Source of the DNA: Perna viridis
Taxonomy: Eukaryota
Assembly: GCA_037379345.1 (NCBI GenBank)
Contig: CM074519.1
Span: forward strand, 6,572,001 to 6,636,000
Length of the DNA stretch: 64,000 nt
Direction: 5' to 3'
Position numbers: made by a program
Shown: in pieces, positions 21,001 to 24,000 of the stretch
How the letters are laid out: the number at the start of each line of letters is the position of its first letter
Numbering within the stretch: the first letter of the stretch is position 1

Positions 21001-24000
21001 ACTGATGGATGGAAAACATTTCTAAATTGATATTCTTGTAACAACTTTTTATAAATAAAACAACAGCAAAAAAAAAACAAATCAAAATATCGTCTTTATT
21101 GAAATAAAACCATTTCATACAACAATTATGCCAGGAAGATATTCACATGTTACGAGCAAATCAAGTATCATATCTTACGGCTGGTACATGCAGTATAGAG
21201 AGTTTTGTATGATGTCATCACTTACCTGTGATTTGGTTTTGGTTGGCAAAAAATCCATTGTGTGGCATAGGGCATCAATTTTAAATCATTTTAAAGATAA
21301 CTGAAAGAGTACTCAAGGGAACCAAGGCTATAGCGGTAATCAAAAGAATGTAATCCTGGGACAAATACCAGATTTGAAAAATTCTTTTGGTTCCCAACAT
21401 TACAAATAAAATTCTTTTTATCCATGGAATTTTAAATATATATAATAAATATTCAGTAATTAGACTATATGTGCAAAAGATTTTAATTATAATTTTATAC
21501 AAAAATAGAGGTTTACATACATAATATGAATTATTTTAACTAAATGACACATTTTACAGAACCAAATTGGATATAAAATAAAAAGTTATAAAGTTTGAAA
21601 ATTGGGATTCTAATCACGAATTTGTCAATTGTTTATTTAGTGGTTTATTTGCCAACCAATATGACACTTTTTGATATGCAAATTAGTAAATATGACATCA
21701 CTAATGAGATTAGCGAACTCTCCTATACATTTCCAATTAAAATTTGGCAAAAGTTGTCGATTGGATGTTATTTTAAACAATCGAATGTTAGATATCTCAG
21801 AAATATGAAATCTATGATTGGGCAAATCTGTTATTGTATTTCCTAATCTTGTTAAGGAAGGTAAGGAAATCTCTAAAAACACCTTTTAACATTACCAAAA
21901 TACGACAACTTGTGACGAAGACAAAATATCTTTAAGACTTGAATTGAATTGTCTTCGTGTTCCACATATATAAATTTGCTCTGCACATCAAATTTATCAT
22001 ATATCACAGTGTGCTTAGGAATAATAAAATTCATAATAAAAAGTTGAATAAAAAGAGTATCTCTAAACTTTGTTATCACAGAAAATATAAAACACCGTTT
22101 GCATATAAATGTACAAGTCATTTTTGGAATCAAGCAATCGTAAACAAATTTAATAAAAAGCGATAAATCATCTATGTAGTACATTTGTACATGGTTTGAA
22201 GCTCCAACGTCTGATACTTACAGCATCATTTAAAAGGGAAACTCATAAACAGGACAGAATAACCTAAGTGTCAATTCATGAACAAAATTCAGTTACTTCA
22301 CGTCTTACAACAGCAGAATGTTTTTGATTTGTTACCTCCCTTATTACTTGACTTTAAAAAACTGAGCATTTTTATTACTTCCCTTCATACGTATATTAAA
22401 CTGAATTCAATACAGAAGTTTAATGTTCATACAAAATATTTAACTGAATCAAAACAAAAGTTAAATGTTCATATAAAAGTCCGTGAAAGTCCGTAAAGTA
22501 TAATATATGTACACGTTTTTTCATTCATGTTATAGCAGTTCATCTGTGGAAATGAACTATAAAAGTAATACTCCTGTAAACATCAAATGTTAGTCTTACT
22601 GAAATCAGCATACACGTAACGATTTCAAAAAATAACTTTTAACATAAAATTAATTAACAGATAATAGAGATTGTCATTTGTGTGAACTTAATTAACAGAA
22701 AATACAGATTGTCATTTCACTAGATTTTAAACCTGTACAAATATATACAAACCCATTACCAAATATTATGTGCACCAAAAATTTACTACTCGTGAAAAGT
22801 ACTATTATTACACAATGAACCACCCCCTTTCCCATTTCACACAGAAAAAAATTATTACCAAAAAATCTTCCCCTCATTTTTCATTTTTTATCAACCAAAA
22901 GTTTTTTAATACCCTCGAATTTACATTTATTTTTGTTTCACTGAATTACTTGTAGAAACATATAACTTTGAAACAAGTGTATGCTTTTGTATGCTTTGAA
23001 ATCGAATTCCGCCTTCCCGCCTAAAACATAAAACAAAATCCATATTTTTTCAATACATGGACCATGCAACTAAAACATGACAAGACAAACTCATTACATG
23101 AGGGAAGACAGCATAGTTAATAAAGTCCACTGGACTGATAAATGTTTGGGGTTCTTCACTGTTTCTTAACAGCTAAACCGAAAATATCCTCATGAAGTCT
23201 GTCTTCAGCCTGTAAAATAGACAATAAACATGACAGTAATAATAAGAATATTAACTGGTATTTAAAATATAATACAACGAGTCATTTTTTATCTATGTTC
23301 ATTGTTCAAAGAAAGAAAACCATGGATTTGATAAAATAACATGAAATGAAATGCAAGGTTAACATACCGAGTCACACAACCAACAAAAACATAAAATAAC
23401 TGACATAATATGTACAAGGAAACAAAAGTAAATAAACAATCCGGTATGAATATCCCATGTCTAAAGCAAAATAAGGATGACATAAAAAAAAAAACGTAGA
23501 CCTACTTTTAAAATATTATTAAAACTAAAAGGCAACGAACAATGGAACGATGAAAAGATATTAATAGCAGATAAGTACAAAATAAAACAGAGACAAGAAA
23601 TAGACCAGTCAGCCCTATTGCGTAAGATGTGAGTTATAATAAGAATTTCAAAACAGGCGTTGTTCAAGTAATCAGAGACGTCACAGTCGATTAGTCGTAA
23701 CGATGTCATTGGAATTACCGATGTTTTAGTACCATAGTAGTAGCTTGAGGCACTAAGAACAATAAAAAAACAATTAAGCAACAGAAAAAATATCTTCATT
23801 TTGTTGAGGCATGCGTCACCATTGTAGTAGCCTGACGTACTAAGAACAAACGGAAAACAATTAAGTGACAGATAAATTACCTTCATTTTGTTGAGGTATG
23901 CATCACTTTGGTAGTCAGTCATATTGCCATGTCTCTGTATAACAGAGAGTAGTGTATTTTTGACATCTGATGCCATCTGAATATTTCCACAGATGTAGAA

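What the first reader, a model, noticed from the sequence alone, without database searches (positions are those of the whole stretch)
23119..23209. C-terminal regulatory tail almost absent (HEDIFG-LAVKKQ-stop)
Seen: TGA 6 codons after HEDIFG. Known: mammalian NOS tails are roughly 21-42 residues, carry the Akt/PKA-site serine in nNOS/eNOS, and their deletion speeds reductase electron flux. The FAD-shielding Phe is kept, and a Lys occupies the nNOS Arg1400 position. Inference: a natural tail-truncation enzyme with a de-repressed reductase and possibly more superoxide uncoupling.
Basis: partly seen in the sequence, partly recalled or inferred. Interest (0 to 1): 0.7.

Follow-up and report, generated by a model that had tools for sequence, protein, structure and literature searches.

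The report
Short-tailed bivalve-type nitric oxide synthase
The last coding exon of an apparently intact invertebrate nitric oxide synthase gene stops six residues after the flavin-shielding Phe, but equally short tails occur in related mussel genes and in many arthropod genes, so this is a fairly ordinary natural variant.

Summary
On the minus strand the last coding exon (23209..23159) reads AEDRLHEDIFGLAVKKQ and is followed by TGA (23158..23156). It has a good acceptor, and the other two frames close within 2 and 4 codons after the Phe.

- **Gene state:** it is a multi-exon NOS with no PDZ domain found. Every junction I examined has a GT-AG solution and no exon carries an in-frame stop.
- **Closest relatives:** these are the non-PDZ Mytilus paralogues, at about 56-60% identity. 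Their tails are 8, 8 and 23 residues and share the RLHEDIFG-(L/I)AV(K/R) signature.
- **How common short tails are:** of 82 NOS C-termini recovered, 17 have tails of 12 residues or fewer. These include decapods, an ostracod and a horseshoe crab.
- **Longer tail:** I found no downstream tail-like exon, usable internal donor or hidden frame that would restore one.
- **Conserved positions:** Lys sits at the nNOS Arg1400 position.
- **Function:** a de-repressed reductase is an inference from mammalian truncation work and was not tested here. Extra superoxide is speculation.
- **Still unchecked:** transcript 3' ends, other haplotypes and true orthologues.

This is a new member of a known kind, of modest interest.

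The parts
23159..23209 (-). Last coding exon, 17 codons: AEDRLHEDIFGLAVKKQ. It holds the FAD-shielding Phe, the Lys at the nNOS Arg1400 position and the 6-residue tail.
   Evidence: Sequence. Translation. tblastn to P0007 gives 87% over 15 aa. Junction solver score 18.2.
23156..23158 (-). TGA stop codon, six codons after HEDIFG.
   Evidence: After the Phe codon the other two frames also close (GTT TAG; TTT AGC TGT TAA), read directly.
23210..23211 (-). Acceptor AG of the last intron (tctattttacAG|G), phase 0.
23881..24072 (-). Penultimate exon, 64 codons (TYVQDLIKQ...AYLNKMK), part of the NADPH-binding lobe. The donor is AAG|GTAATT, phase 0.
   Evidence: PDB matches to CPR and NOS reductase domains. 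60-66% identity to Mytilus paralogues. In one search many of the short hits to this exon end in K/R followed by V and unrelated residues, as expected for genomic read-through at a shared intron position.
22926..22931 (-). First AATAAA after the stop, 227 nt downstream. A possible polyadenylation signal. This is weak evidence in a genome with about 31% G+C.
   Evidence: One search lists 12 AATAAA/ATTAAA sites within 2.5 kb.
23156..45283 (-). Conserved body of the NOS gene, 23 exons as mapped.

Last bases of donor exons: 45135, 44187, 43407, 41372, 40892, 39049, 38500, 37867, 36918, 35847, 34773, 34346, 33234, 32556, 31544, 31140, 28363, 27621, 26023, 25615, 24547, 23881.

First bases of acceptor exons: 44349, 43498, 41516, 41031, 39223, 38601, 38061, 37003, 35991 (or 36063), 34877, 34395, 33483, 32700, 31619, 31342, 28532, 27831, 26104, 25739, 24692, 24072, 23209.

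Two small exons (34395..34346 and 31619..31544) are inferred from phase plus weak similarity.
   Evidence: tblastn exon map. Junction solver and manual resolution. Pfam on single exons gives NO_synthase, Flavodoxin_1 and FAD_binding_1. None of 1275 tblastn HSPs fall outside this span.
48122..48946 (-). Open frame of 274 codons upstream, containing an ATG (MDYTGRGRRNN...). It is basic and Asn/Lys-rich. It may be the first coding exon. Its link to the exon at about 45283 is not resolved.
   Evidence: No Pfam family, so no PDZ was found.

Best explanation
This is the genuine 3' end of an apparently intact, lineage-specific NOS paralogue of bivalve (mussel-like) type with no PDZ domain found. Its C-terminal regulatory tail has been reduced to six residues.

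Shown here:
- The protein ends at ...HEDIFG-LAVKKQ.
- It keeps the FAD-stacking Phe.
- It keeps the short stretch up to the basic residue that corresponds to nNOS Arg1400.

Inferred:
- It has no room for the 20-30-residue helix that, in mammalian NOS, lies against the FMN domain and autoinhibits FMN reduction.
- It has no room for the downstream Ser that is phosphorylated in nNOS and eNOS.
- The helix-based lock and the phospho-switch are therefore absent.
- Any remaining NADPH-dependent restraint would have to act through the retained Lys.
- Control by Ca2+/calmodulin would rest on the calmodulin site and on the FMN-domain insert, which is of intermediate length here.
- The expected phenotype is higher calmodulin-independent flavin-to-acceptor flux than in a long-tailed paralogue.

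The short tail is a trait of the clade, not a one-off accident.
For: - **Reading and splice structure:**
- **Gene integrity:**
  - Nineteen of the 22 junctions are solved with GT-AG and compatible phases by the script.
  - The other three were resolved by eye plus a phase-constrained scan, which added two small exons.
  - None of the correctly framed exon pieces has a stop. One piece was mis-framed through my own coordinate slip.
  - Pfam domains are found on single exons.
- **Relationship to the Mytilus paralogues:**
  - The summed tblastn score is highest for the Mytilus non-PDZ paralogues P0052 (1336 bits) and P0007 (1333), against 1236 for the PDZ-type P0011.
  - In 13 of 21 exon pieces that gave hits, the top hit is P0007, P0052 or P0125.
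- **Relatives' tails:**
  - They end HEDIFGLAVRLKKR (M. trossulus P0052 and M. coruscus P0125; 8 residues) and HEDIFGIAVKK...(23 residues, M. galloprovincialis P0007).
  - Two unnamed fragments with the same RLHEDIFG signature have tails of 10 and 17 residues.
- **Short tails elsewhere:** 17 of 82 C-termini have 12 residues or fewer. They include Cherax, Procambarus, Scylla, Macrobrachium, krill, Limulus and Notodromas. A tree built without the tail columns needs at least 4 changes between short and long.
- **No hidden tail:**
  - Sixty-five tails of relatives found nothing downstream better than the opposite-strand control. Best E was 0.14 on the minus strand against 0.098 on the plus strand.
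  - Read-through, frameshifted and alternatively spliced peptides are no more tail-like than random stop-free peptides from the window (fractions of nulls reaching the observed score: 0.08, 0.82, 0.62, 0.40 and 0.31).
  - The three GT sites inside the exon score 2-5, against 6-14 for the gene's 22 donors. None has A at +3, against 21 of 22.
- **Role of the tail in mammalian NOS:** section 12 of PMC12922734 and a passage of PMC3509625.
Against: - No transcript evidence exists for the 3' end. Neither protein search with the penultimate exon found a spliced product from this species (1 hit of 8 candidates, a genomic read-through ORF; none).
- No true orthologue was found. The best identity on the most conserved exon is 83%. 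The stop position in sister species is therefore unknown.
- Membership in the Mytilus non-PDZ clade rests on exon-wise scores, not on a tree that includes the window. The margin over the PDZ-type paralogue is modest (about 56% against 55% identity).
- A single-base indel within the 14 nt between the out-of-frame TAG and the TGA would open a 38-40-codon frame. A private or assembly indel therefore cannot be excluded.
- Many short-tailed database entries are automatic gene models and could share the same blind spot.
- In the tree, the short-tailed arthropod group includes long branches that the program flagged.
- The functional consequences were not tested.
Confidence: 0.7

Rival explanations
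1. The stop is recent, private to a haplotype, or an assembly error. In that case the population's normal allele would encode a longer tail, about 19 residues by read-through of the TGA position or about 40 by a one-base frame change.
For: In frame after the TGA comes RTPNIYQSSGLY. This aligns loosely with the RTAEIHKSS part of insect tails. A +1 frame of 40 codons opens just after HEDIFG. A genomic ORF from another source (P0001) is 98% identical, not 100%, over the neighbouring exon and intron, so sequence variants of this locus exist.
Against: The post-stop similarity is not significant: 8% of 2000 random stop-free peptides score as high. The +1 frame is less tail-like than 82% of 300 random peptides. 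Frame 0 up to LAVKK matches the relatives (IAVKK, LAVR), so any error would have to lie in the last few codons. The closest named relatives also stop early, at 8 residues. Open frames of 35 codons or more are very common in this AT-rich window: 583 across 44 kb.
Confidence: 0.1
2. An alternative 3' splice form removes the stop or the last codons and adds a longer tail from a downstream exon. The 6-residue tail would then be only one isoform.
For: There are GT dinucleotides inside the exon: after HEDIF-G, within AV, and across the stop. Two good-looking acceptors lie downstream (ttttag| at about 23080 and 23021). Frames of 26 or 30 codons would follow from the acceptor at about 23021. One of them ends in the AATAAA at 22931.
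Against: The three internal donors score 2, 3 and 5 on the same scale on which all 22 donors of this gene score 6-14. None has A at +3, against 21 of 22. The putative added peptides are no more like known tails than random peptides (fractions 0.62, 0.40 and 0.31). No downstream match to 65 relatives' tails beats the opposite-strand control. No transcripts were available to test this directly.
Confidence: 0.1
3. The gene is a decaying duplicate (pseudogene or unexpressed copy), and the short tail is part of its erosion.
For: It is a divergent member of a lineage-specific expansion, at about 56-60% identity to its nearest relatives. Two small exons had to be inferred, one of them with an unusual GTT donor. 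The FMN-loop motif reads GNGHPP where the printed relatives have GNGDPP or GSGEPP. No expression evidence was found.
Against: All mapped exons are open and every junction has a GT-AG solution in a compatible phase. The strongly conserved motifs are present in the exon translations: the heme-Cys region, the substrate-site GWYMSTE region, and [13 protein letters not shown] (which residues are catalytic is recalled). Single exons score up to 94 bits against Pfam NO_synthase.
Confidence: 0.1

Closest known systems
Mytilus non-PDZ NOS paralogues: M. trossulus 'inducible-like' (P0052), M. coruscus CAC5367656.1 (P0125), M. galloprovincialis 'NOS 1-like' (P0007)
   Same: - No PDZ domain in their Pfam listing, and none found in the window's upstream frame.
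- The same RLHEDIFG-(L/I)AV(K/R) C-terminal signature.
- Short tails of 8, 8 and 23 residues.
- An FMN-domain insert of similar intermediate length (39-51 residues against about 46 here).
- Best overall and exon-wise similarity.
   Different: Only about 56-60% identical, so this is not an orthologue from the same genus. The window's tail, at 6 residues, is the shortest of the group. A tree containing the window was not built, because that would need the joined model.
Short-tailed arthropod NOS: decapods Cherax, Procambarus, Scylla and Macrobrachium; krill; ostracod Notodromas; horseshoe crab Limulus
   Same: Tails of 4-8 residues directly after the HEDIFG-type motif. No PDZ.
   Different: They sit in a separate part of the tree, so the shortening was probably independent (at least 4 changes, with long-branch warnings). 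Several lack a basic residue at the Arg1400 position (for example IKLQK and VLHI).
Mammalian NOS with engineered C-terminal truncations, and the nNOS FAD/NADPH-domain construct 1F20
   Same: The protein ends at or just after the HEDIFG motif. Chain 1f20_A stops one residue after it. Removal of the tail raises acceptor reduction in mammalian NOS (section 12 of PMC12922734).
   Different: Those are laboratory constructs of enzymes that evolved with a tail of 21-42 residues. Here the short tail is natural, and the rest of the enzyme may have compensated. I did not read the original truncation papers; I saw only their titles in a reference list.
NADPH-cytochrome P450 reductase and other diflavin reductases (MSR, P450 BM3, sulfite reductase)
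   Same: The homologous FNR-like lobe ends within 0-2 residues of the flavin-stacking aromatic residue. For example, the alignments reach 538 of 539, 389 of 391 and 374 of 374. Functionally these are tail-less.
   Different: They stack Trp rather than Phe, are not fused to a NOS oxygenase domain, and are not regulated by calmodulin. The window keeps six residues, including the NOS-specific basic residue.

Membership tests
Animal three-domain nitric oxide synthase | NOS oxygenase domain (Pfam PF02898) | tested here: met
   Three single exons score 69, 91 and 94 bits against a cut-off of 22.7.
Animal three-domain nitric oxide synthase | Flavodoxin-like FMN domain and FAD-binding domain of the diflavin reductase type | tested here: met
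   PF00258 at 55.5 bits. PF00667 at 36.4 and 77.4 bits on single exons.
Animal three-domain nitric oxide synthase | NADPH-binding lobe ending in the HEDIFG-type motif with the flavin-stacking Phe | tested here: met
   Pfam found nothing on the two short exons of this lobe. The penultimate exon matches CPR and NOS reductase chains (E down to 9e-8). The last exon reads RLHEDIFG. F aligns with nNOS 1395.
Animal three-domain nitric oxide synthase | Calmodulin-binding linker between the oxygenase and FMN domains | not tested
   An exon in the right place (37003..36918) is basic and aligns weakly with relatives. No calmodulin-site test was run.
NOS with the canonical C-terminal regulatory tail (mammalian type) | A helical extension of 21-42 (or 20-30) residues after the Phe | tested here: not met
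   Six residues only. The length ranges come from PMC3509625 and PMC12922734.
NOS with the canonical C-terminal regulatory tail (mammalian type) | Basic residue at the nNOS Arg1400 position | tested here: met
   Lys, by ungapped spacing from the HEDIFG anchor. Basic in 65 of 81 C-termini.
NOS with the canonical C-terminal regulatory tail (mammalian type) | Regulatory phospho-Ser in the tail (nNOS Ser1412 type) | tested here: not met
   LAVKKQ contains no Ser or Thr. Ser1412 as the activating site comes from the title of PMC3989272 (search listing).
nNOS-like PDZ-bearing NOS | N-terminal PDZ domain | tested here: inconclusive
   No Pfam family in the 274-codon upstream frame. No PDZ-containing homologue gave an HSP upstream of 45400. 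The 5' end of the gene is not fully resolved within the window.
Mytilus-type non-PDZ, short-tailed NOS paralogue group | RLHEDIFG-(L/I)AV(K/R) C-terminus, a tail of 23 residues or fewer, and best similarity to P0007/P0052/P0125 | tested here: met
   (13 of 21 exon pieces). Clade membership by tree was not tested for the window itself.

The most novel reading that the evidence does not exclude
Loss of the C-terminal tail may be a recurrent evolutionary way of switching a NOS copy to a different mode of regulation. After lineage-specific duplications, as in mussel-type bivalves, and in an old arthropod group, one copy repeatedly drops the PDZ domain and the tail helix and reverts to a CPR-like C-terminus. 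The result would be a class of natural, constitutively de-repressed NOS with high electron flux, perhaps used for immune or stress output. The six residues retained here, up to the Arg1400-equivalent Lys, would mark the minimal functional stub.
Probability: 0.3. Interest if true: 0.5.

Novelty: new member of a known kind. Interest (0 to 1): 0.3.

Why it matters
The NOS tail is a well-studied brake on electron transfer in mammals. The comparative papers I read (passages of PMC7400543) discuss the PDZ domain and the FMN-domain insert, not the tail.

A natural enzyme with six tail residues, sitting next to paralogues with 8, 23 and 67 residues in related mussels, offers a ready-made series. It could be used to ask how much of the tail is needed for repression, and whether enzymes that lost it compensate elsewhere. 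In itself the locus is one more example of a variant already visible in public protein sets.

Tried and rejected
- **Spliced product search:** protein searches with the penultimate exon looked for a spliced product from this species. One search gave only a genomic read-through ORF (P0001). One search gave nothing.
- **PDB search with the last-exon frame:** the 41-residue stop-to-stop frame holding the last exon gave 0 hits at E up to 10. I used an unnamed relative fragment (P0152) instead to obtain nNOS numbering.
- **Vestigial tail after the stop:** the RTPNIYQSS resemblance to RTAEIHKSS is not significant (fraction 0.08).
- **Frameshift-hidden tail:** rejected, with 82% of nulls scoring as high.
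- **Alternative donors and downstream exons:** no support.
- **Other NOS-like sequence in the window:** none; 0 of 1275 HSPs fall outside the gene.
- **Literature:** five searches listed no paper whose title or abstract start concerns tail length in invertebrate NOS. This covers only the held library, and supplements are closed.
- one exon piece was mis-framed by my own coordinate slip (33480 instead of 33482) and is excluded from the count.
- **Apparent pseudo-exon:** a possible pseudo-exon in the FMN-region intron turned out to overlap the small exon inferred.
- **Joined model:** the joined spliced model was not assembled, searched, folded or placed in a tree. All searches were exon by exon.
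- **Collections not available:** No orthologous eukaryotic DNA could therefore be examined.
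Full report
**What is there.** The window is AT-rich, with G+C of 0.30-0.38 in 2-kb windows. It carries a multi-exon nitric oxide synthase gene on the minus strand.

Stop-to-stop frames list NOS-like exon translations from about 45283 down to 23156. The last of these reads ...ILQ|AEDRLHEDIFGLAVKKQ*.

The sequence shows the following:
- a pyrimidine-rich acceptor, tctattttacAG|G, with the exon starting at 23209;
- 17 sense codons;
- TGA at 23158-23156.

The penultimate exon (24072..23881, 64 codons) ends AAG|GTAATT. Both exons are in phase 0. The stated observation, a TGA six codons after HEDIFG, is therefore correct. The finding's interval runs from the exon's first base to 37 nt past the stop.

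After the Phe codon the two other frames close at once (GTT TAG; TTT AGC TGT TAA, read). A frame error at or before the motif therefore cannot hide a tail.

**Is the gene whole?** tblastn with two Mytilus NOS proteins maps 19-21 blocks in order.

A script searched each junction for GT...AG pairs with compatible phase and no stops. It solved 19 junctions with clear scores. The three poor ones were resolved by reading the sequence:
- a GTG|GTAGGA donor at 25615 joined to 24692;
- a small exon inferred at 31619..31544, which matches the expected segment before the FAD domain;
- a small exon inferred at 34395..34346, which lies in the FMN-domain insert and shares F, L, KDR and K with the Mytilus proteins at the same place.

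Pfam finds NO_synthase, Flavodoxin_1 and FAD_binding_1 on single exons. An upstream 274-codon frame (48946..48122) has no Pfam family, so no PDZ was seen. Its link to the rest of the gene is unresolved.

Everything was done exon by exon.

**Relatives.** The window's own protein, or a close orthologue, is not in the protein collection:
- The most conserved exon finds 585 proteins, but the best is 83% identical.
- The penultimate exon finds only a 185-residue ORF from an unnamed assembly. That ORF is the same exon read through into the intron, at 98% identity.
- The search at near lengths finds nothing.

By summed tblastn score, the nearest full-length proteins are as follows:

| Protein | Type | Score (bits) | Identity |
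|---|---|---|---|
| P0052 (Mytilus) | non-PDZ | 1336 | 56.6% |
| P0007 (Mytilus) | non-PDZ | 1333 | 56.2% |
| P0125 (Mytilus) | non-PDZ | 1183 | 59.8% over less length |
| P0011 (Mytilus) | PDZ-type | 1236 | 55.0% |

Exon by exon, the top hit is one of P0007, P0052 or P0125 in 13 of the 21 pieces that gave hits. One further piece was mis-framed by my slip, and one 16-residue piece gave no hit.

P0007 and P0052 are 65% identical to each other and about 54% identical to P0011. The window's gene therefore looks like a third, more divergent member of that non-PDZ group in a related but different genus.

The C-terminal signature agrees with this. RLHEDIFG followed by (L/I)AV(K/R) is seen only in the window, P0007, P0052 and P0125. 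RLHEDIFG alone is also seen in the unnamed fragments P0133 and P0152. Other molluscan NOS read RFHEDIFG and arthropod ones RYHEDIFG.

**Tail lengths.** I measured the residues after the HEDIFG-type motif in every recovered protein that has one: 82 in all, 63 and 19.

| Tail length (residues) | Number of 82 |
|---|---|
| 8 or fewer | 14 |
| 12 or fewer | 17 |
| 13-20 | 2 |
| 21-42 | 38 |
| more than 42 | 25 |

The median is 24.

The short ones are:
- M. trossulus and M. coruscus (8);
- Cherax, two Procambarus models and Macrobrachium (5);
- a further Procambarus model (8);
- Scylla, krill and Limulus (4);
- the ostracod Notodromas (6);
- a pseudoscorpion (11);
- three unnamed entries.

M. galloprovincialis P0007 has 23 residues, and its PDZ-bearing paralogue has 67.

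A maximum-likelihood tree of 50 of these proteins, with the tails cut off, gave two results:
- The Mytilus short-tailed proteins are sister to the Mytilus PDZ-type protein (support 99-100).
- The decapod, Limulus and ostracod proteins sit elsewhere, and at least four changes between short and long are needed.

The program warned of long branches in the arthropod group, so that number is soft.

The window's six-residue tail is thus the short end of a trait shared with its nearest relatives. It belongs to a minority class that is already present in public data.

**Could a longer tail be hidden?**
- *Homology downstream:* 48 relatives' tails with the motif as anchor matched, in the 40 best rows I looked at, only the last exon itself. 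Without the anchor, 65 tails gave a best minus-strand E of 0.14, with stops inside the match. The best E on the opposite strand, used as a control, was 0.098. No NOS HSP lies outside the gene: 0 of 1275.
- *Read-through:* the 12 codons after TGA look a little like the RTAEIHKSS stretch of insect tails. However, 8% of 2000 random stop-free peptides from the window score as high.
- *Frameshift:* a 40-codon +1 frame opens right after the motif. It scores below 82% of 300 random peptides. Frames of that length are commonplace here: 583 frames of 35 codons or more in 44 kb.
- *Alternative splicing:* the three GT sites in the exon score 2, 3 and 5 on a scale on which the gene's 22 donors score 6-14. 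None has A at +3, against 21 of 22. The peptides that such splices would add are not tail-like (fractions 0.62, 0.40 and 0.31).

None of this replaces transcript data. What stays open:
- a one-base indel in the last 14 nt before the stop;
- a stop private to one haplotype;
- an unconventional splice.

**Positions of known function.** HMMER aligns a relative's ...hedifgnnvk with ...hedifgvtlr of nNOS chain 8t1j, ending at residue 1400. By the same spacing, the window's Phe is nNOS 1395 and its Lys is 1400.

The roles of these residues come from titles in the reference list of PMC12922734. One title names a conserved flavin-shielding residue. [quoted passage not shown] I did not read those papers.

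A basic residue occupies the 1400 position in 65 of 81 C-termini. The same one search shows that MSR, P450 BM3 and sulfite reductase end within 0-2 residues of their stacking aromatic residue. It also shows that the nNOS construct 1f20 ends one residue after HEDIFG.

**How it probably works.**

Established by others (section 12 of PMC12922734; passage of PMC3509625):
- The mammalian tail has 21-42 residues and is largely helical.
- It autoinhibits reduction of the FMN domain by the FNR lobe.
- Its removal raises cytochrome c reduction.

Shown here:
- This protein has six residues after the motif and no Ser or Thr among them.
- It keeps the Phe and a Lys at position 1400.

Inferred:
- The helix-based lock and the phospho-switch are missing.
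- Any NADPH-linked restraint through the basic residue may persist.
- Regulation must rely on calmodulin and on the FMN-domain insert. By my count that insert is about 46 residues here, against 39-51 in the Mytilus relatives, 59 in the PDZ type, 78 in an insect and 25 in Limulus.

'More superoxide' is a guess.

**Novelty and verdict.** The locus is a new member of a known kind. It is a real, probably functional, short-tailed NOS paralogue, and it is neither unique nor an artefact as far as the window can show.

The five literature searches listed no paper whose title or abstract start concerns tail length in invertebrate NOS. The comparative paper I sampled (passages of PMC7400543) discusses PDZ domains and the FMN insert. 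Supplements were closed and may hold alignments that bear on this.

Interest is modest. The value lies in the natural series of tail lengths among mussel paralogues.

Noticed in passing
window 34346-34395 and 33234-33483 (minus strand): The FMN-domain regulatory insert is of intermediate length. I count about 46 residues between the FGNGxPP motif and the FSAFGLGS motif. The Mytilus relatives have 39-51, a PDZ-type mussel NOS has 59, an insect has 78 and Limulus has 25. Part of the insert lies on a small inferred exon with an unusual AAG|GTTTGC donor.
   Followed up: partly
window 34773-34805 (minus strand): The FMN-binding loop reads FGNGHPPENG. All seven relatives printed have Asp or Glu at the His position (FGNGDPP, FGSGEPP). 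The effect on FMN binding or potential is unknown.
   Followed up: no
window 23960-23990 (minus strand): The NADPH-lobe motif reads YICGN. Most of the relatives listed, and nNOS, read (V/I)CGD. The unnamed relative P0152 has CGQ. I made no count.
   Followed up: no
window 48122-48946 (minus strand): A 274-codon open frame with an ATG, rich in Arg, Lys and Asn, with no Pfam family. It may be the N-terminal coding exon of the NOS gene. The junction to the exon near 45283 was not worked out.
   Followed up: partly
window about 47700-48070: Near-identical frames recur at a spacing of about 101 bp, three of them on the plus strand (LPCMMGNLV.NLGSQLVHVSFYKKKQFQRKEICNYHA at 47818, 47919 and 48020). 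This points to a short tandem repeat just downstream of the putative first exon.
   Followed up: no
window 23461-24078 (minus strand): An unnamed assembly in the protein collection (P0001) carries the same exon-plus-intron frame at 98% identity, with a few differences in the intronic part. Independent genomic sequence of this or a very close species therefore exists. Its contig of 1221 bases could not be read with the tools open here.
   Followed up: partly
window 26000-30000: G+C rises to 0.36-0.38 inside two large introns. Several longer frames there are unrelated to NOS (for example 26895-27203). This may be a transposable-element remnant.
   Followed up: no
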